Origin: the human T2T-CHM13v2.0 reference genome, Homo sapiens
Reading direction: 5' to 3' (one strand)
Assembly: GCF_009914755.1 (NCBI RefSeq)
Contig: NC_060938.1
DNA: 64,000 bases
Shown here: one piece after another, positions 4,082-45,764 of the stretch
How the letters are laid out: each line of letters begins with the position of its first letter
Numbering within the stretch: the stretch's first letter is position 1
Position numbers and translations under genes: made by a program
Notes under the pieces: model-generated
The model's database searches: none
Told to the model about the DNA's origin: nothing
Seen by the model: only the letters and a program-made list of their open reading frames with translations

Positions 4082-6478
4082 GTAACTAATTGACTTCCTT
4101 TCTCCTGAGCTACCCTGTGATTGAGGCAGAGCAATTTTCTCTAAGGACATAGCACTGCAAAGATAGAGCCTATAATCAAACATCCTAGTTGCTCTTTAGG
4201 AGCTCAACCTAGGTCTAGCCTGCTCAATTTAGTATAGTTCACTTCTACGAATAATACTGAACCCAAAGCAAGACTCTGACGAGGATCGAGAAAGCAGTGA
4301 CACACCTAACCATGCTGTAAGGCAGAATAGAAGAGATATAACAGAGATCAAGTGTGTAATCTAGAAAAGGGACATATTGATTATGCTGAGGAGGTAGGCA
4401 TGGGAGGCAGTAGCCATTTGAGAGGCAGAAGCAGCAGGAGCAAATGCATAGAGACAAGAAACTTCCATCTATTGAGTGACTGGTTCCACTTGGCTGAAGT
4501 ATAAGGTAAGTTTGGAGGGACAGGGATGCCAGGGTGTGGAAACACAGGTTTTTGCTTATGAGTCTTCAATGTCTGAGAAAAAAAAAAAAGGCCGCATGGG
4601 ATGTTCTTGTCTATTTTTGCTGTTAGGTGATAAATAGGCAGATATATCTAGGTATGTGTGTGCGTGTTGCCAAGGGATCTGTATTTATACAGATTTAGTG
4701 ACAACATTTATTAACACAACGGGGTGATAGGCTTTGGCATCAGGATGTTGTAATAGTTGTAATTTGGCTTGTATCAACATCCCTATTTTTGCAGATGAGT
4801 AAACTGTGGCTTTGAACAATAAGGACCTCACCCAGGGTCGCCCAGCGCTGGTAAATGTTGGGTTTAGGAACTGAACCCAGGTCTAGCTGGTTCCAGAGCA
4901 CACATTGGTGCTTTCCGTGGCGTGGCCTGTAGGTGACTTCTGAGGGAATTCAGCTCCTTGGTGCTGAGGGCTTAGCCATGATTCCTTTCAGAGTGAGTTC
5001 TCCATGTCTTCTTTGGCCAGGTTCCTGTGCTCAGGGGGATTTTCAAAGATAATGGTGTCCACTGGAGGGAAATATATCTTGGAGCAAAGATGTGCAAGGA
5101 TGGTTCCAGATTCTCCATTCCTATTTATGAAAACTGGCAGATTTGCTGACTGTGAACATAGTGGCCAAAGGGCTGAATAGATATGAGCATTTGAGAGTAA
5201 AATGTGTTTTGGGAAGCTTTAAATTCTTATTTTTGAAATAAGATAATAAATGTCCAAATCAAATGGGAAATTAGTGACCAGGTTAAAAAATAAACTGAGG
5301 TTTTCCAACTCCAAGTTCAGTGTATTTTCTATTTTGTTAAAAAAGTAAAAGTAAATTGCAAAGAAGATACTTGGAGAGGAGGAACAAAGTAAGTAAGGCA
5401 AGGACATGATGGATACAGGGGGATTAACTGGGGAGGGAATGTCTGTAAAGTGTATAAATTTTGGGGTTGGGGGGGGTACAGCTAAAAGGAGCTGTCCTAA
5501 ATCCTGGCAAAGGCCCTCCACTTTAATAAGCGTTGTAACTTTCTCTTTCATTGTTGGAGGTAACACGTATGAAAGGAAAGCAGCAATCAGAACAATGCAG
5601 TTTCCCAGAGGGCTCTTTAGCAGAAGTCTCCTGTGGTTCCATGCTGTTGTTAATGCTCCCCTTATTTTAGTCTCCTGGACTCCCTAAATGCTTTGGACCA
5701 CTTGAGCAAGGCCACGTTGCTAATTGTGCAGAACCCCTTCAGAGGTGGCACCGCTGAGCAAGACCAGGCAACTCAGGCTCTAATGGGCCTTGATTGTGGT
5801 CTCTGGAGCAAAAACCACCTCTTGAAAGCTGCTGTGAGACAGCTATTGGGAGGTTTGGTAGGAAGATTTAGTGCTGCTCTTTGAAGGATCGATGTCTAAG
5901 CTCTTCAAAACCTCCTGACACCTCAGATGGATTCTAGGTGGTTCCCCAGTGGGCACAATCTCATTATCATCCACATACATTTATTTATCTCCTAATAGGG
6001 GCCCATCACTGTATTATGAGGGCCGCAAAGCCTAGCTATGGGGCTAAAACAAGCACACATGAAGCAATGAATGAGTATTAACTGCTGAGATGTATATTTC
6101 TGATGGCCTCTTCAAGGTGCAGAGAAAGAAGATCTCCTCCAAGAGAATTAAATGGTCAGAATTGGGGAGGTAAAAATTAGAATCTGAAGAAACTAAACAT
6201 GCTTTAGAGAGACAGGTGGTTGGCATCAGAATGAATTCCTGGCAATAGGGAGCAACCTGCAGACAGGGAATAAGAATGTACACAGAATGGCCTGAGTAGA
6301 ATAGAAAATGTGTGTCTCTTTTGATTATAACAAGGAAGAAGTCAAGTTTGTTTTTAGTTTGTCTGTAACACCCACTCATTCTTACCAATTTGCCTTATTT
6401 GCAAAGAGACAGCTGTGCCCAGGCCTTTAGAAAGGAACAGTATCTACCGTAATTTATTGGTATTTTATTTTCATTCTA

Positions 6479-6805: not shown

Positions 6806-7225
6806 TATTTATTTTTACGGTTAACTTCTATAGGCAAGTGACACTGGTTTCAATGAAAATGTATGTAAATGAAAAGAAGTGAAGCAATTTAAGGAAAAAG
6901 ACGAAATAATAATTCAGGTAGTATATAGATGGGGCAAAAATATGTGATATTGACGCACCATTGACCAAAGTTTGGGAAAAAGAGGAGTCATAGTAAAATG
7001 TTGATCCTTGTGTTGAAGTTTCTGATCCTCCTTGCACTACTCACCATAGATACTCCAGAAAAGTGGAAGAATGAGTCAATAAATAAATCATTCATGACTT
7101 TTCCAAAGGAAATAATCCAACTATCTGCTAATAAGTGTCAAAACTAGGGTAATGACAATGATAAAAAGGAATCAATCCAGGTGACACTTGAGAGTAAGAA
7201 ATAACAAATAACAGATCAGAGTTAG

Positions 7226-8316: not shown

Positions 8317-8717
<401 letters not shown>

Positions 8718-9253
8718 ACTTATTTTCTTATTTGCATGCTTTATACCTGCTATTACTTAGTTCCTGTGATGTTTCCCAGAAATATGGAATTAGCTGTGCC
8801 AGACACTATGGCCAGAAGACTCAACAGTCACATAGCGTTATGATGGTTAAATGCTAGGATTGAATGTTAAATAAATTTTAAAGTAAATTTTAAGTGGCTG
8901 CATAATAATTTATTGTGTATTCACTAATAATAAATCCTAAGAATCTAATATCCCAAGATAAATGAGCCCAAGAATTTATTCAGACTATATTCTGTAATAT
9001 TCTGTGTGAACAAAGGGAATAATTGGATAGTTTGAGGGGTACCATGATTTCTTACATGTTGTACAACTTAAATATTCTAAGTGTATCTTAGATCACATGC
9101 TACAAATTTCTATTATCACTATTAATAGCTATCAGATATTGAACTCTATTAAGCATCATGTACTTTAGTCAATATTTGAAACCACTCATTGAGGTGGATA
9201 CTATTATCTCCACTTTTTAGGTGAGGAACCTAAGAGTCAAAAACAGAGGTTAA

Positions 9254-38439: not shown

Positions 38440-41400
38440 GTATCGTATGAAGTACCCTCTGCCACTTCGTTTGGGCTTGTCTTCCCTTTCTTTTCTGATT
38501 TTCATTGGTTTGATTGAATTCTTTGTTTGTTTCTTGAAAGTTAGCTGCTCACCTCTTGTTTAACAGACCCAGGATAAAACCCAACAGCAGCGATCACCTT
38601 CTCCTTGTTTCTGCATGAGGTTTTGATGTCAATTTCTGGTTTCTGACAGTGGTGATTTCTTTACTAGATTATTTGTTTTCTAAGTTTCCTTTCTTGGTTT
38701 TTTGGAATCGTTTAGCTTTGTGTAAAACACGCTACTTTGGTCCATCTTTTGATCAATCATATTCCCATAAGTCCAACTCCTCAGTCACCACTCAAAACAG
38801 TCACAGCTGAGGTCAGGGACAGGGCAGGAAGTGGAGGCAAAATGTTGACGGTGGGGTTGTAGGAAATTAAACTTTGTGGGTAGGGTGAGAAGTACATTGT
38901 TTCTAGCTCCACAGCTACTATTCAAATGGAGAATTCTGGTGGCCTTGATGACACTGATATCTCCTTTGACTTTCTCCTAGAGGGAGGACAAGTAGATTGT
39001 TGTTCCCTTGGAAAATAATTCCCTAAGTTGAGTCTGTGACACGTGGAAGGAAAATGTGTCTCCTGATACGTATACCCATTTTTCTTCTTGACATTCTTAA
39101 CCATCACTCAGCATCCCCTTGTGCAAAGATTGTTACCTTGTACTATCACTCACTAATAACTCTCTTCTTCTTATATAATACATATCTATTTTACCTCAGA
39201 GTTGAAAAATTATGACTTCAAATTTGTGGCTTTATTGGAATAGGATTTTCTCTTTCATTGTAATTACCTATAACAGAATCTTTAGAAATTTTCCTTTATA
39301 TGGCCTCATATTCTCTTCTGCTATTGACCTTTACTGAATTCTAATTGATATTCTATAGAGATTGGGATCCTCTTGGTTTTTGGCAAGGAAAAAACAAACA
39401 AACACTCCATTTCTGCTGTTTCTAATCAGCAGAAAGTCAATACCCAGCATTGATAAGATTAGTGAGACAGCTGGGTCCAAACTTTCTAAGCTAGTGAATG
39501 TATTTGGGTACGTAGAATATGTTTGGATACAGTGATACCTTATAAAGATTTCAGTGAAATGGTTTGTCAGAGCCATGGAGAAAAAATGATGAACAAATGT
39601 ACCAGATGCAAGATCATATGTAGGCCCACATGTCCTGGTGGGAAGGTGGGGTTTTTGAATCCATACCAATCTTATCTGCTGTCAGGTCAACTGGACACAC
39701 TTGGAAAATGCCTACATCATAAACCTAAAGACTCTGGGACACAAAGGACTGTTTTGAGCAGTGACTTCTTTAGTTATGTCTTTTTTTTTTCTTCTAGTTT
39801 TCAGTGTTTACAGTACCGTGCTCTTTTTCTTGTCCAACTTCATTTGATTTCTGTTGTCAGTGTGTCTCTTGGTTTTTCTTTTGTTTGTGTATTGTGTGTT
39901 TGGTCATTTTAGGTTATATTTTTTTCTTTTGCTGGATCTTTTTGTGTGCGTGTGTTCCTGAGTTTCCAATCCTCCCCGCCATCAACCATGGTAAATCAAA
40001 AGATGGTATTCAACCCTTCAAAGGCCCAAAGCCTGCGGCCCGCATAGCAAACAGCCTTGAGAACACAGCGTATTGAGCAGCCTACAGAGACTGGCATACC
40101 CCTGACCCTACTACCTTCCATCCCTGCACCATCCTACCCACCTTAAATCAATATAAGAGTGTGTTACCTAAAACCAACAGCCAGCAGCTGATTATCTCCT
40201 CAGAAAAAAACAACAGAAAAAAAAAAAAAACAGAACCAAATACAACCCCATAACTAGCTCACTGAAAAAGATGATGAAGACAATTTTTATCTCTGGATCT
40301 ATTTCAAAGTCAGAGAGAGACAAACATATGAGAATGATTCAGCCCCACGGGATCCTGAGGGAGTGTACACAGTGTCATTAAACAGACATTTTTTTCCCCA
40401 TTAGGTGTTGTTTAGTAAAGATTAGAGTGTCAACTTTGACAGGTCTCACATCTTAGAAGGAAAAACTGGGGTCAGTGGGGGTACAAATAAAAGCGTATAA
40501 GAAATAAGGAAATAAGTGTACAGATTCTCATTCTCTCTCTCACACACACACACATACACCTTGAGTTGGTCATACATCCCACATGCATTTCTAGAAGCAT
40601 TATTTTTGTATTTTAAACTCTAGTCAAAGTCTGAGAGATGTGCTTTTCCAATAGACTTTGCTTTTTTTTTTTTTTTTTCCCCCTTTGGCTTCTTTTGTTG
40701 CAATTTCAATCTAGCTCCTGCTGCGTTGAACCATCTCAGGCAAAGGAGAGGTAGCCTCTCTGTAGAGAGCACTGTGCTTGTCCAGAAGCCATAGTTAATT
40801 TTTTTTACACCAAAGGATAGGTTCATCATAATTACTGGTTTGAATTTATTTAACTTTCTTTCCAACCTGACATGGAAAACTGAACTTAAACTCTCATGCT
40901 TGTGTAAATGCAGCTCTTCATATCCACGCCTTGTTTAAAGGTTTTCCTTCCGTTCCCTCCCCAAAATATACCCCTTTGCAAATATTTTCTTTCTCTTTGC
41001 CGTGAATTTGTGTTTCATTTTTCTCAATTACAGAAGAAAATGTATCCAAGTAGAATTTGTCTTCACATGCATTCCACCAAAATTAATTTCAAATGATCAC
41101 TTTGCTCCCTCACTCTATTCAAGTTGTGTCTTTTTTCTAGCCCATGCACTAACAATATTTTAGTTTATTTCAAATTGATCACACATATGCATTCATGATA
41201 TAAAAGCCTAGTATATATTTCTCTGATGTAACATATCTTCCAAATGTCAAGGAGACTAGGGTTTTCCAATGGCTTTATCTTCTGCAGGCAGCCATATGTG
41301 GTGCTAACAGGTATGAGAAATATCCTATAACTCAGCACAACTTTTAAAAAGTTGAGAGGTTGACTATTGATCAACCATATTTTGATTCTTTAGAATTATA

Positions 41401-42065
41401 AGCTATAACATTTTATTATTACAGCATATTTAAAGATTTAAAAGACCTTATCTTATTTTAATCTCATGATCTCATGGATCTCATGCGATTAATGATAATC
41501 TCATGATAATTTTGTGAGATAAATCAAGCAAGTGTTTTTATGCTTACTTTTACAGATGTGTAGCACAGAGAGAAATATATTACTTTTCAAAGCTTACATA
41601 AAAAGTTGGAGACAGAGCTGGAACTAGAACCCATGTCTCTAAACTGCTAGATCAGCCTGCGTTATTTGTTTCCTTCACAGATCAGCACTATGGGTCAATG
41701 ATGTGTTAGTCTTAATGGCTTCCAATTGTTTTTATGATGGTCACCTTTGAAACACACACAGAGAGAATCTCCATTTTCCTCAGTGCCCAGTTTGAATTGA
41801 GCTGCACTAGGGAAAAGACAGTTGATATGGACAAAACCTTTAAAAGATCCTTAGCAGAGTGCCAGGAGCCCTTCTTCAATGGCAGACTCTGAGGGAGTGG
41901 CATGTAGTTTGGTAAATTGCATTTGAATTCTCCAGATGTTCTCTCTCTGGAAATGTGGACTTGCTATTACTGTTTACCAAACACATTATTGAAGACACAC
42001 AGCTCTTAGAAACATTTACCTCTTCCATGCTCGACCCAAAGCTCAACAACGAGAAAAACTTTCTT

Positions 42066-42413
<348 letters not shown>

Positions 42414-44667
42414 CTATCATTTACCATAATTTAAAACAAAACAAAATTAAAACAGGCAACACACAGATATGAACACATACACATCAAAAGATATGCCAAG
42501 ACTTAGGCAGACTTTTTTCAAGCAAAAAGTCTGGCTGCTACCAAACGTAGATTTAAAGGAAATTGCCTTCCCAACTCAGTTCTTTGACTCATATTTTTTA
42601 TTTAAAAAACCACATATATAAATGTGTATGTGTGCGTGTGTCTATATACACACGCACACACACACATATTTATACATATATACATACACATTCAGTAACA
42701 AGAACACCCCCTCAGAGCCTATCAAGAAGGCTCTGGGATAGATTTTCCTTCTCAAACCACTTGTTCTTCAGGTAAAATAACAAAGTAATTCTTCACATAT
42801 TGAGGTAAAGTAAACAAACTGTCTGCCATCTTGAAAGCGCCAAGCTCTTACATTGGTTTAAAGACCGCATCCACTTTACATGAAATCATTTGAGTGATCC
42901 AGAAAGATGAGCCCAAGCCACCACCTCTCACTAGGCCAGCTTCTTGTCTAATAATAAAATCCTCAGCTATGCAGAAGCCGAAGACAAAACCCACTTGTTG
43001 TTTGCAGTCCTTGGGTTTGTTGCTTTAGGCTCACTCTTCCTCTCATAAGCGTGCCCATACACCAGTTTCCTCTCTCTCTTTAATATGTCAGGAAGGGACA
43101 TTTCTCCAGCTTTGGGTGATGGTAGGTGCAGTCAGTAGCTGAAGCCATCACCTCTTCCTCCCTCCCTGCCCTCCCTCCTTCCAGTCCTCACCAGGGGCAT
43201 GGCCTCCTCTGTCTGGTAATCATACCGGTTGCTCCAGGGCTGTTTGCTCCCACTTTTCTGTTGCGGTTGACGACACATGACAAACCTAACCGCACGAAAC
43301 CAAACCCAGATTTTTCTCAAGAGATGTTCTTCTCGGGAACAAATAAGCATTCTGCCTCCTTACTCAGAATAACTGGGTGCTATAAATCGCTCCTCTCCAG
43401 ATTTCACGTAGCTTCATTCTCCCCTTTATTCTTGCTCCTTTAAAATGATTCACTTTGGGGAATTCAAATGGTGGCATCATCCTTGACAAGTCCTCTAAAA
43501 ACTACTGGGTCAACCTTAAGCAGAAGAAGAGTACTTTGTGACTATATTTTCCCCTCTATCTTTCTTCCTTTAAAAAAAAAATCATTTCGCTTCTACCTTT
43601 TAGTATCTAACGGTAAACAAATCCTTATTGGAATTTCCACCATGATAAACCAACCTTAGGCTGAACCGGGCAGCTTGGTAACAACTAACCTGAGACCTTT
43701 CTCTGACCTTTTCTGCCCAGTCCCCTACTATGCCCACTGATTCTACTCAAGGACTTCTATGTTGTGTGTCCATGACTCCCAAGCAGAGATTAATACAATG
43801 ATAGATATGCTGATCTCTGGCACAGAATACCTTGTCTGATTACTAGCTCTGCCCAGTTGGTCACTCTTTTCTTCCCTCCCTTTCCCATTTAAAAAAGTGA
43901 AACAAAAACCAAAAAATTTTCTCTCCTCAAGATGTGGAATCACAGAGTGAAATACTCAAGATGTCAAAGGTGCCGAGACCTCCTCCACACGTGCCTGGCT
44001 TGCCTTCTCCCTGAATGCTGTGGGCACTTGATTCAGTCTGCGTATTCAGGCAGGAAGACAGAGATGGGCTGCGCGAGGGGGTTGATCTGGGAGCCTTTGA
44101 ATCACTAGCAATCAGAGAACCCAATTCATTGTGATAACATCATACAACTCCTTTGACCCTACACCCGACCCCACCTCTCTAAAATCTGGGATGGGTGTTT
44201 GTGCGGTTAGCTGTTTGCAAGTGGCCATTTTATGACAGGAAATGACCAGGTGGTGTTAACCCTTTCCTTACCACTAAGGAAGATGGCAAGTCTGCCTATG
44301 CAAATTTCTATAGCATTTGGGGCCCAACCTAAGGAGAGGGTGGAGGGAGTTTGATTTTAGAAAAAGAGAAAGGGTTAAGTACTTCACTGAGCAACTTCAT
44401 GGGCAGATTTTTTAAATGATACAATCAGTCAGACTGGTGATATGTCTTTGGAATACTAATACAAAAATTGTGTTAATGCTACTTTAAAAACGAATTTTAA
44501 GAAAATAAATTATAGAGGAAAATAGAATATAACCTGCATTTGGTGGGGGGAATTATTGCCTATTTTTCCAAGTTTGACAAAATTAATATTTCAAAGTCCA
44601 GGTTTGAAATACTTTATATAAAAGAATAGCTTTTTTTGAAAAAAAAAAATGTTTGGTGTCTACTGTG

Positions 44668-44722
44668 GATATATATGTATACCAGTATATATCTCTATAC
44701 ATATGTGTATATATATGTGTGT
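44668..44722. repeat. (TA)/(TG) low-complexity tract upstream of the microexon
   Basis: Visible dinucleotide runs. Confidence 0.85.
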
Positions 44723-44931
44723 GTGTGTATATATATATGTATCCAACTTTACTAAATAATATACTGTACATATACACCCACCCTTAAACTTGTACATACT
44801 TTATATATATAAAATGGCCACATTTCTTACGTGTGTCTGTCCCCGGAAGGGTGGACTGATTGTTTTTGGATGTCTGCAGCTGTTACCTTGAAGGATGCAA
44901 TTTCATCTTTCATTTATTTTTCCCCATCTAG

Positions 44932-44958
44932 ACTGTATCAGGATAAACTGTAACTCCA
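44932..44958 (+). CDS. NRXN3: NRXN3 alternatively spliced SS3/AS3 microexon, 27 nt, encoding (D)CIRINCNS(S)
   Basis: ttttccccatctag|ACTGTATCAGGATAAACTGTAACTCCA|gtaagt. Read in phase 1 after the upstream exon it gives DCIRINCNS, the known alpha-neurexin SS3 insert in LNS4. Canonical AG and GTAAGT sites. Confidence 0.96.
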
Positions 44959-45764
44959 GTAAGTTTTCCCTCAAGTTTCATTTTGTTCTTTAAAAAAAAA
45001 AAAAAAAACTGACTTTATTTTGTTTACTGTTTTATGAGCTGTTTTTTATTTGAATTATTTTTTCTTTTAACAATGGAGTGGGGGGGACCTGGGGCTAAGA
45101 AGATGGGGGGCTGGGTGAGGGTGAAGGGCTGAGTGTGGTTTTGGGTGTGGTTTCTGAAGTGAGGGCAGGTCCTCTCTTCTTTCCTTGCATTTGCTCTATA
45201 TGAAGAAAAGAAGGCAAGGGCACATGAATAATGAAATAATGAAAAATCAAGTTGAAATGATGATTTATTGTTTTTGGGAGGTAACTCTGAGAGTGAACAA
45301 AAAGCTTTAGGGCAACCAGCATGCACTTCTCCACTACCAAACAGTTTAGAAAATAAAAGCACTGTTCTTGACCCACAGGTGGCTGCCAACTCTGACATTT
45401 CTTTCCCAGTATTTATCTCTGTTGGGAACTTCTAGCAGGTGGGCAGATCACTGCTATTGGTGATAAGGCAACACTTTAACCAAAGACTTGAGACACACTC
45501 TGTCTCTGCAAAAGGAAGAACTGCAGTATTATTTTCACCTTATCCCATTCAGATACCCTAGTTCTTGAAGAAGGGTCCTAACAAGGCACAGGATGAAAAC
45601 TACTCATGTATTTCTTCCTCTTCCTTAGAAGTAAACATTAGCTTGAGTCAACATGTAGAAGGGGAATATGAAGATAAATAGGAAGAATAGGCACAAGAGA
45701 AAGAATAGGCCTAGATGATGAAAGGAACAAAGGAAGAAATATGCTTTGAGTACTATAGCATATT

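What the first reader, a model, noticed from the sequence alone, without database searches (positions are those of the whole stretch)
43094..44449. ~1.35-kb nested imperfect RNA fold-back in unique sequence just upstream of the NRXN3 SS3 microexon
Seen by manual pairing. The core is two exact 10-bp helices in one register: 43286-43295 CTAACCGCAC with 44201-44210 GTGCGGTTAG, and 43305-43314 CCCAGATTTT with 44181-44190 AAAATCTGGG. It is extended by 43254-43262/44234-44242 in the same register. Further collinear nested helices are 43094-43109/44434-44449, 43162-43180/44331-44349, 43396-43403/44084-44091, 43407-43414/44066-44073, 43429-43436/44049-44056, 43472-43488/43962-43975, 43533-43541/43940-43948 and 43664-43673/43849-43858. 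All centre near 43750. The sequence is not a recognisable transposon, and many deviations from Watson-Crick are G-U pairs that work only on the transcribed + strand. Inference: a selected pre-mRNA structure that shortens the intron or positions regulators ~480 nt before the microexon acceptor. It may also be an ADAR substrate, e.g. A43855 lies opposite C43667. Long-range intronic pairing is an established splicing mechanism (Dscam docking sites, RBFOX RNA bridges, GRIA2 editing duplex), but I know of no such description for NRXN3 SS3.
Basis: partly seen in the sequence, partly recalled or inferred. Interest (0 to 1): 0.85.

Follow-up and report, generated by a model that had tools for sequence, protein, structure and literature searches.

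The report
Conserved RNA duplex upstream of SS3
Inside the intron before a tiny alternatively spliced neurexin-3 exon, two stretches about 870 bases apart can pair as RNA, and the sister gene neurexin-1 keeps the same pairing with different letters, which suggests a selected RNA structure that may help control this exon.

Summary
The core is an imperfect 41/43-nt inverted repeat, 43274-43314 x 44181-44223 (36 of 44 columns match; 0 of 1000 shuffles reach its score). Stems of the other helices' kind are as frequent in control sequence (30 seen, 28±12.6 expected). The 1-kb fold is unremarkable (z -1.7 sense, -0.7 antisense).

The left arm lies in an element conserved in the same intron of NRXN1 and NRXN2. 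NRXN1 has its own right arm at the homologous place. Of 25 left-arm columns paired in both genes, 14 are unchanged, 8 changed on both sides and 3 changed on one side.

I also found a second, outer helix. The 5' half of the left element (43250-43279) pairs with a conserved block 75-100 nt before the SS3 acceptor (44830-44854). This holds in NRXN3 and NRXN1, and with two A-U to G-C swaps in NRXN2.

Best reading: an ancestral long-range pre-mRNA structure at SS3. Its function is untested. No description was found in the searchable literature.

The parts
43230..43314 (+). Element B: intronic block conserved among the neurexin paralogues. It carries both left-hand strands (B1 and B2).
   Evidence: 89% identity over 56 nt to the NRXN1 intron in the whole-genome search. 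77.6% over 85 nt by blastn, collinear with the flanking exons. The NRXN2 counterpart L002rc 5765-5827 is 76.6% identical to NRXN1. On its own it folds no better than shuffles (z +1.13).
43274..43314 (+). B2: left arm of the core duplex.
   Evidence: RNAduplex with C gives -47.2 kcal/mol, z -6.6, 0 of 200 shuffles. Pair probability 0.97-0.99 in an 1816-nt fold.
44181..44232 (+). C: right arm of the core duplex (44181-44223) plus a conserved 3' flank reaching 44232.
   Evidence: Its best match in the NRXN1 interval between B and D is the NRXN1 right arm itself (N3 44208-44231 to L001rc 5060-5084, score 15.0, 3 of 1000 shuffles).
43250..43279 (+). B1: 5' half of element B and left strand of the outer helix. 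Sub-helix H2 is 43250-43260 and H1 is 43269-43279.
   Evidence: RNAduplex with D gives -30.0 kcal/mol (2 of 500 shuffles). D is the best of 103 downstream tiles for B1. It contains four U.G pairs that would be A.C on the antisense strand. Sense -30.0 against antisense -21.7. Not in the NRXN3 MFE (pair probability 0.00).
44830..44854 (+). D: right strand of the outer helix, 78-102 nt upstream of the SS3 acceptor, inside the conserved block 44807-44931.
   Evidence: The block is 86% identical to NRXN1 over 159 nt including the exon. It aligns in all three paralogues. It can instead form a local hairpin, 44835-44844 x 44850-44860.
44932..44958 (+). SS3 cassette microexon, 27 nt.
   Evidence: RefSeq annotation supplied with the finding. 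It is exon 10-12 (7 in one shorter transcript, NM_004796.6) in 38 of the 56 NRXN3 RefSeq models and absent from 18, 5 of which are short models that lack the upstream exon too. It translates in frame to CIRINCNS.
40011..40066 (+). Block A: a further NRXN1/NRXN3-conserved intronic block. Its 10-nt stretch GCAAACAGCC, in both genes, is the exact complement of GGCTGTTTGC at 43238-43247 in B. Candidate third helix.
   Evidence: 85.7% identity over 56 nt. A-B1 duplex z -2.4 in NRXN3 (6 of 200) and -1.8 in NRXN1 (10 of 200). No counterpart found in NRXN2. Weak evidence.

Best explanation
The real feature is a bipartite long-range structure in the sense pre-mRNA of the intron upstream of the SS3 microexon.

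An element B (43230-43314), conserved among the paralogues, supplies two adjacent left strands. Its 3' half (B2) pairs with C (44181-44223) and closes an 866-nt loop. Its 5' half (B1) can pair with D (44830-44854), which lies 78-102 nt before the SS3 acceptor. The two helices are nested. NRXN1 has the same architecture, with a 688-nt loop and only about 105 nt between C and D. NRXN2 keeps B1 and D.

Shown: complementarity far beyond shuffles, homology of all strands between paralogues, pair-preserving double substitutions, and greater stability on the sense strand.

Inferred: the structure predates the split of the vertebrate neurexin genes. B2-C forms first during transcription and acts as a clamp that holds B next to the acceptor region. 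B1-D then competes with a local hairpin in D and changes how accessible the sequence upstream of the branch point and polypyrimidine tract is. This would tune inclusion of the 27-nt exon. The direction of the effect is unknown.
For: Core duplex. 0 of 1000 shuffles reach its alignment score in NRXN3 and 5 of 1000 in NRXN1. RNAduplex z is -6.6 in NRXN3 and -6.3 in NRXN1, 0 of 200 shuffles each. C is the best downstream tile for B2 in both genes: -51.8 against a median of -15 in NRXN3, and -32.9 against a median of -16 in NRXN1.

Covariation. Of 25 homologous left-arm columns paired in both genes, 14 are the same, 8 changed on both sides and 3 changed on one side. The right arms are homologous (3 of 1000 shuffles).

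B1-D. z is -4.0 in NRXN3 (1 of 200) and -4.6 in NRXN1 (0 of 200). With restricted arms the energies are -30.0 (2 of 500), -30.3 (0 of 500) and, for NRXN2, -29.7 (29 of 500). D is the top tile for B1 in NRXN3 and NRXN1. The NRXN2 helix 5806-5813 x 7157-7164 is homologous to NRXN3 43273-79 x 44830-36, with two A-U to G-C double changes.

Whole-span fold of NRXN1. All five sub-helices are in the MFE (7 of 9 pairs for one, all pairs for the rest), with mean pair probabilities of 0.78-1.00.

Strand. The sense strand is more stable than the antisense for all 5 duplexes tested, by 2.5-8.3 kcal/mol.

Local structure. B and D alone fold no better than shuffles (z +1.13 to -0.48 for 6 sequences), so local structure does not explain their conservation.

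Not a repeat and not a known RNA family.
Against: Only three human paralogues could be compared. No orthologues were available, so there is no formal covariation statistic.

B1-D is absent from the thermodynamic ensemble of NRXN3 and NRXN2 (pair probability 0.00). In the NRXN3 MFE, B1 instead pairs with non-conserved sequence at 44250-44326, and D forms a local hairpin.

The NRXN2 B1-D duplex is not significant against its GC-rich background (29 of 500). The NRXN2 alignment in D is ambiguous by 2 nt (differ). NRXN2 is GC-biased, and the swapped segment is a palindrome-like ACGCGT.

No B2-C partner was found in NRXN2 (212 of 1000 shuffles, and at a non-homologous site). Many equally strong duplexes exist there.

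In the B2-C comparison, 9 NRXN3 pairs have no paired NRXN1 counterpart and 3 NRXN1 pairs have none in NRXN3.

The whole-region folding energy is unremarkable.

There is no experimental evidence for pairing in vivo or for any effect on SS3.
Confidence: 0.6

Rival explanations
1. B, C and D are independently conserved protein-binding splicing or transcription elements. Their complementarity is incidental and no duplex forms in vivo.
For: B1 and D are nearly invariant between NRXN1 and NRXN3, so the pairing there cannot be told apart from plain sequence conservation. B1-D is not in the NRXN3 or NRXN2 ensembles. D has its own local hairpin.
Against: B2 and C have diverged between NRXN1 and NRXN3 yet remain complementary within each gene, with 8 double changes. 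Independent binding sites would not co-vary. Duplex z is about -6.5 in both genes. Two double changes occur in NRXN2 H1.
Confidence: 0.12
2. The duplex is real and selected, but its role is not control of SS3. It could be an ADAR substrate, or act in intron processing or turnover, or be a platform for double-stranded-RNA-binding proteins.
For: In NRXN1 the interrupted duplex involves about 60 nt of the left strand. A preprint reports hyper-editing in NRXN3 introns 4, 10 and 13 (passages seen), and the SS3-upstream intron is intron 9, 10 or 11 in the full-length RefSeq models (intron 6 in one shorter one).
Against: The outer helix ends 78 nt from the SS3 acceptor, inside the block that is conserved with the exon. 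The longest uninterrupted helix in NRXN3 is 13 bp including one G.U, which from general knowledge is short for efficient ADAR editing. Hyper-editing is usually Alu-driven, and the intron numbering in that preprint is unresolved.
Confidence: 0.15
3. The whole 1.35-kb region is one selected nested fold-back of 11 helices.
For: All the helices exist. When the fold is cut exactly at 43094-44449, the two outer helices appear in the MFE with 13 of 16 and 15 of 19 pairs.
Against: The stem count equals the genomic background. The outermost helix disappears when flanks are added (0 of 16), and 7 inner helices have 0 pairs. None of these segments is conserved in NRXN1. z is -1.74.
Confidence: 0.05
4. 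A DNA-level feature: remnant terminal inverted repeats of an ancient transposon, or a cruciform or enhancer palindrome.
For: The inverted-repeat geometry. The antisense duplexes are also fairly stable (-43.0 and -27.0 for B2-C).
Against: No other genomic copies were found and the region is not masked. Retention in paralogues that, from general knowledge, split in early vertebrates requires selection. The G.U pairs favour the sense RNA in all 5 duplexes. No functional element is annotated there.
Confidence: 0.05

Closest known systems
Pairs of conserved complementary regions (PCCRs), i.e. long-range intronic RNA structures in human genes (Kalmykova et al. 2021, PMC8052449; only the start of the abstract and a term search were seen)
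   Same: Two conserved intronic stretches less than 10 kb apart in one pre-mRNA. They are complementary, show compensatory changes and lie next to an alternative exon.
   Different: The main text of that paper does not mention NRXN or neurexin (0 occurrences). Its catalogue is in supplements I could not open, so this pair may or may not be listed. Here the support comes from paralogues rather than orthologues.
Ancestral intronic splicing elements shared by SCN-alpha paralogues (bioRxiv 10.1101/2025.08.16.670673) and BRD2/BRD3 (PMC10789245); search listing and start of abstracts only
   Same: Intronic RNA-structure elements compared across paralogous genes in order to infer their age and function.
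   Different: Different genes and exon types (mutually exclusive or poison exons). The BRD2/BRD3 title says their structures evolved independently, whereas here all strands are homologous between paralogues.
ATE1 competing long-range structures R1-R5 (PMC7797038; start of abstract only)
   Same: Several conserved intronic elements with nested or competing pairings, including very long-range ones, around alternative exons.
   Different: ATE1 controls mutually exclusive exons and has mutational proof. Here there is a single cassette microexon and no experiment. Competition (B1 with D against the D hairpin; A or B2 with C) is only suggested.
Dscam1 docking/selector system (Graveley 2005, seen only as a reference; PMC8791459 and PMC12962786 from the listing)
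   Same: Long-range intronic base pairing in a neuronal adhesion-molecule gene that governs exon choice.
   Different: There is no exon cluster and no one-docking-site-to-many-selectors arrangement.
RBFOX 'RNA bridges' (Lovci et al. 2013; recalled, not read here)
   Same: A duplex that brings a distal conserved intronic element close to a regulated exon.
   Different: No GCAUG occurs in B or C of NRXN3 (read). A TGCATG occurs only in the NRXN1 D block.

Membership tests
Long-range conserved intronic RNA duplex (PCCR-type splicing structure) | Two complementary segments in the same pre-mRNA, more stable than chance | tested here: met
   B2-C z is -6.6 in NRXN3 and -6.3 in NRXN1. 0 of 1000 and 5 of 1000 shuffles reach the alignment scores.
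Long-range conserved intronic RNA duplex (PCCR-type splicing structure) | Both segments evolutionarily conserved | tested here: met
   Met for paralogues only. B is shared by all three genes. C is shared by NRXN3 and NRXN1. D is shared by all three. Orthologues could not be tested with these tools.
Long-range conserved intronic RNA duplex (PCCR-type splicing structure) | Compensatory substitutions that keep the pairs | tested here: met
   B2-C: 8 double and 3 single changes among 25 co-paired columns. B1-D: 2 double changes in NRXN2, dependent on the alignment. With only 2-3 sequences no formal test is possible.
Long-range conserved intronic RNA duplex (PCCR-type splicing structure) | Pairing occurs in vivo and disrupting or restoring it changes splicing | not testable with these tools
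   No cross-linking, structure-probing or minigene data were available.
Dscam-type docking/selector competition | One docking site and multiple selector sequences, each preceding a mutually exclusive exon | tested here: not met
   SS3 is a single 27-nt cassette exon (annotation). Only one B2-C pair was found per gene.
RBFOX RNA bridge | A distal GCAUG site brought to the exon by the duplex | tested here: not met
   No GCATG occurs in 43230-43314 or 44181-44232 (sequence). The motif is recalled. RBFOX binding itself could not be tested.
ADAR editing duplex (GRIA2-type exon/ECS pair) | Duplex between an exon carrying the edited adenosine and an intronic complementary sequence | tested here: not met
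   All the arms are intronic (annotation). Editing itself could not be tested.
Inverted transposon copies / TIR element | The arms belong to a repeat family with other genomic copies or are masked as repeats | tested here: not met
   No masked repeat of 100 nt or more in 43094-44449. The whole-genome search finds only the NRXN1 paralogous block. The tool skips very common words, and shorter masked stretches are not listed.
Any Rfam family | Covariance-model match | tested here: not met
   A search of 39800-45200 at E<=1 gave 25 matches. All lie on an Alu (42204-42353) or on TA/TG microsatellites, and none lies in 43094-44449 or on D.

The most novel reading that the evidence does not exclude
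All vertebrate neurexin genes inherited, from before their duplication, a multi-part RNA switch in the intron before SS3. A distal clamp helix (B2-C) holds a strongly conserved element against the acceptor region. There an effector helix (B1-D) competes with local hairpins, and possibly with a third partner (block A), to set inclusion of the microexon in a cell-type- or activity-dependent way. If so, SS3 would be an RNA-structure-gated splice site, in a gene family whose splice code helps shape synapse properties (my general knowledge).
Probability: 0.3. Interest if true: 0.75.

Novelty: new member of a known kind. Interest (0 to 1): 0.6.

Why it matters
From my own knowledge, neurexin alternative splicing helps set synapse properties, and trans-acting regulators are known for SS4. 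None of my searches turned up a cis-acting mechanism for SS3 beyond the exonic elements studied in NRXN2 (passages of PMC3622022). A pair of short, precisely mapped intronic helices gives a directly testable handle on SS3 through ASOs, compensatory mutants and deletion of C. Their conservation between paralogues that, from general knowledge, date to the early vertebrate genome duplications supports the choice of target. It also gives a place to look when interpreting non-coding variants in NRXN1 and NRXN3. Finally, it shows that comparing paralogues inside one genome can provide covariation evidence when orthologues are not at hand.

Tried and rejected
- MFE shuffles of the full 1356-nt region timed out twice. 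I replaced them with strand folding on the 1000-nt span 43240-44239, both strands with 20 shuffles each, and with single MFE or partition-function folds.
- RNAduplex on whole 100-nt arms against entire introns gave long, loop-ridden duplexes that were not informative. I replaced it with tiled and block-restricted duplexes scored against shuffles.
- Automatic global alignment of the NRXN3 and NRXN1 right arms was unreliable and made pairs look broken. For the tally I used left-arm homology plus each gene's own pairing.
- NRXN2 B2-C. No significant partner was found (212 of 1000 shuffles). In its GC-rich intron many duplexes of -54 to -59 kcal/mol exist. This is inconclusive, not negative.
- Other pairs of conserved blocks are not significant: A-B2, A-C, A-D, B1-C, B2-D and C-D all have z between +1.4 and -1.5. 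This includes the exact 11-nt complement 44222-32 / 44811-21. A-B1 is borderline.
- No block A counterpart, and no complement of the NRXN2 version of GGCTGTTTGC, was found in the NRXN2 intron.
MAFFT also did not align the C arms of NRXN3 and NRXN1 in A1.
- Literature. Searches, and term look-ups, found no description of an RNA structure at neurexin SS3. One review sentence about RNA-structure-dependent splicing of Dscam and neurexins rests on a merged reference to Graveley 2005 and Treutlein et al.. Supplementary catalogues (PCCR lists, SynapseDB duplicated elements) were closed and may contain this pair.
Full report
**What was claimed and what is in the sequence.** All 11 are literally present. 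The two core 10-mers, 43286-95/44201-10 and 43305-14/44181-90, are perfect Watson-Crick. They are offset by one nucleotide rather than strictly in one register. The remaining helices are 8-19 nt long, with 1-4 G.U pairs and 0-4 mismatches. One has arms of unequal length.

**Is it more than chance?** Local alignment of the left half against the reverse complement of the right half picks out a single feature. It is 43274-43314 against 44181-44223, with 36 matches in 44 columns and a score of 23.5.
- No dinucleotide shuffle reached that score: 0 of 500 and 0 of 1000. The same arms in direct orientation score 11.5-16.
- Across 251 equally shaped centres in the 64-kb window it ranks fifth. Three higher centres lie near 8700-9200 and I did not examine them. 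The fourth, and all 6 lower-scoring centres examined, are poly-T, CT-rich or other low-complexity matches, or long, diffuse low-identity alignments.
- The minor helices are ordinary. In 144 control placements in the same window the mean is 28.0 +/- 12.6, and 40% of controls reach 30.
With flanks added (42800-45100) the outermost vanishes (0 of 16). Only the low-complexity CT/GA helix 43162-80/44331-49 remains (15 of 19). All seven other non-core helices have 0 pairs. Both core helices keep 10 of 10.
- The 1000-nt span 43240-44239 folds with z = -1.74 on the sense strand (1 of 20 shuffles as good) and z = -0.66 on the antisense strand (5 of 20).

It is not confirmed for a kilobase-scale stack.

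**Not a repeat and not a known RNA.** No masked repeat of 100 nt or more, and no annotated functional element, lies in the interval. A whole-genome search with 43094-44449 returns only itself and one 56-nt match. Rfam at E<=1 matches only a neighbouring Alu and TA/TG microsatellites.

**The paralogue evidence.** That one genome match is in NRXN1, in the same transcriptional orientation (chr2:50525677-50525732; 89% identity to window 43230-43285). I fetched the NRXN1 and NRXN2 loci.

blastn shows collinear conserved blocks between NRXN3 and NRXN1:
- the upstream exon;
- block A (40011-40066);
- block B (43230-43313, 77.6% over 85 nt);
- block D plus the SS3 exon (44807-44964, 86%).

NRXN2 also has B (L002rc 5765-5827). 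Its SS3 exon lies about 1.47 kb downstream of B.

The key result is that NRXN1's version of the left arm (L001rc 4320-4351) has its own inverted partner at 5041-5071. That partner lies between B and the exon (score 16.5; 5 of 1000 shuffles).
- RNAduplex gives -47.2 kcal/mol for NRXN3 (z -6.6) and -32.8 for NRXN1 (z -6.3), with 0 of 200 shuffles as good in each.
- In both genes the partner is the best tile in the whole downstream intron.
- The right arms are themselves homologous. The best match of the NRXN3 arm in the NRXN1 interval is the NRXN1 arm (3 of 1000 shuffles).
- I took left-arm homology from MAFFT and each gene's own predicted pairing. On that basis 25 columns are paired in both genes: 14 are identical, 8 differ on both sides while staying paired, and 3 differ on one side through G.U.
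- Nine columns are paired only in NRXN3, three only in NRXN1, and two have no homologous column.

Two arms that diverge between paralogues but stay complementary within each gene are hard to explain without pairing.

I tested every pair of conserved blocks. Besides B2-C, only B1-D stands out.
- B1-D has z = -4.0 in NRXN3 (1 of 200) and z = -4.6 in NRXN1 (0 of 200).
- With restricted arms, NRXN3 43250-43279 pairs with 44830-44854 at -30.0 kcal/mol (2 of 500 shuffles). NRXN1 gives -30.3 (0 of 500) and NRXN2 gives -29.7 (29 of 500).
- D is the best of 103 tiles for B1 in NRXN3 and the best of 58 in NRXN1. It is not the best in GC-rich NRXN2.
- D aligns in all three paralogues.
- Between NRXN3 and NRXN1 both strands are almost invariant, so they carry no covariation. 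In NRXN2 the sub-helix homologous to 43273-79/44830-36 is kept as 5806-13/7157-64, with two A-U pairs replaced by G-C and one U.G replaced by U-A.
- The NRXN3 helix contains four U.G pairs that would be A.C on the other strand.
- All five duplexes tested are more stable on the sense strand, by 2.5-8.3 kcal/mol.
- B and D on their own fold no better than shuffles (z +1.13 to -0.48 for six sequences). Local structure therefore does not explain their conservation.

**Evidence against B1-D.**
- In whole-span partition-function folds, NRXN1 forms all five sub-helices (mean pair probabilities 0.78-1.00). NRXN3 forms only B2-C (0.97-0.99), and B1-D has probability 0.00 in both NRXN3 and NRXN2.
- In the NRXN3 MFE, B1 pairs with non-conserved sequence at 44250-44326, and D makes a local hairpin, 44835-44 x 44850-60.
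- The NRXN2 alignment in D shifts by 2 nt between two MAFFT runs.
- NRXN2 is GC-biased, and the swapped motif is palindrome-like.
- No B2-C equivalent was found in NRXN2.

I therefore hold B2-C as well supported and B1-D as probable only.

**Mechanism.**
- Shown: two nested, sense-strand-favoured complementarities, inherited by paralogues and carrying pair-preserving changes. The outer one ends 78 nt from the acceptor of a 27-nt cassette exon. That exon is present in 38 of the 56 NRXN3 RefSeq models and absent from 18, of which 5 are short models that lack the upstream exon as well.
- Inferred: the structure predates the split of the neurexin genes. Their origin in the early vertebrate genome duplications is general knowledge and was not tested here.
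- Inferred: B2-C, which is transcribed first, clamps B near the acceptor region. B1-D then competes with local hairpins and alters access to the region upstream of the branch point and polypyrimidine tract, which changes SS3 inclusion. The direction of the effect is unknown.
The Rival explanations section weighs each.

**Comparison with what is known.** This works like the long-range intronic duplexes catalogued as PCCRs, and like those dissected in ATE1, BRD2/3, SCN-alpha and Dscam1. For those papers I saw only the search listing and the start of the abstracts.
- It meets the computational membership criteria: complementarity, conservation and compensation. The experimental criteria could not be tested.
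- It is not a docking/selector system.
- It has no GCAUG in B or C.
- It is not an exon/ECS editing duplex.

Six full-text searches and term look-ups in nine papers found no description of an RNA structure at neurexin SS3.
- The PCCR paper, the RIC-seq paper, IRBIS and the PeerJ catalogue have 0 occurrences of NRXN or neurexin in their main text.
- The 2006 presynaptic-gene conservation paper discusses duplicated conserved elements and RNA structure only in general terms, in the passages I saw.
- The NRXN2 SS3 study deals with exonic elements.
- Closed supplements could still list this pair.

**Verdict.** This is a real and probably functional long-range RNA duplex, and a new member of a known kind. 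The extent, most of the helices and the ADAR example were not. Interest is 0.6.

Noticed in passing
window 44889-44897 x 44904-44912; NRXN1 and NRXN2 counterparts in L001 and L002: The motif UGAAGGAUG is conserved in all three paralogues. It forms a 9-bp local hairpin with CAUCUUUCA in the polypyrimidine tract, 20-43 nt before the SS3 acceptor. An equivalent hairpin appears in the MFE of the NRXN1 and NRXN2 acceptor regions, with different loop and stem letters. It could mask the polypyrimidine tract.
   Followed up: partly
window 40011-40066 and 43238-43247: Block A is conserved with NRXN1 (85.7% over 56 nt). It carries GCAAACAGCC, the exact complement of GGCTGTTTGC at the 5' end of element B, in both NRXN3 and NRXN1. 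Duplex z is -2.4 and -1.8. Block A also resembles the reverse complement of arm C, so it might compete with B2. No NRXN2 counterpart was found.
   Followed up: partly
window 43263-43269 x 43287-43293: An NRXN3-specific local hairpin: UGCGGUU in B1 pairs with AACCGCA in B2. It is present in the MFE and centroid of B folded alone. It would compete with the B2-C helix. The NRXN1 B2 sequence lacks this complementarity.
   Followed up: partly
window 42643-42691 and 44689-44737: TA/CA-rich and TA/TG-rich microsatellites on either side of B and C are 73-79% complementary over 44-49 nt (I1-I4). They are low complexity. One is masked (42586-42695). They give sub-threshold mir-297/466-like Rfam hits. 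They could add a further, probably lineage-specific, long-range pairing.
   Followed up: no
window 44222-44232 and 44811-44821: GTGGCCATTTT in the conserved 3' flank of arm C is the exact reverse complement of AAAATGGCCAC at the 5' end of block D. The block-level C-D duplex is not significant (z -1.0 in NRXN3, -0.6 in NRXN1). TGGCCA is itself a palindrome.
   Followed up: partly
window 42093-42457; L001 and L002: An Alu-like repeat is masked here and gives an SRP-like Rfam hit at 42206-42353 below threshold. It has similar copies in the NRXN1 and NRXN2 loci in both orientations. Such copies could form inverted-Alu pairs, which are relevant to the reported hyper-editing.
   Followed up: no
NRXN3 intron containing window 38440-44931: A preprint (10.1101/2021.06.10.447947, passages seen) reports hyper-editing accumulating in the 4th, 10th and 13th introns of NRXN3. 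The SS3-upstream intron is number 9, 10 or 11 in the full-length RefSeq models (6 in one shorter transcript), so it may or may not be the one meant.
   Followed up: partly
window about 8700-9200: This is the strongest inverted repeat in the window by the same alignment test (scores 54-132.5). I did not examine it. It may be an inverted repeat-element pair.
   Followed up: no
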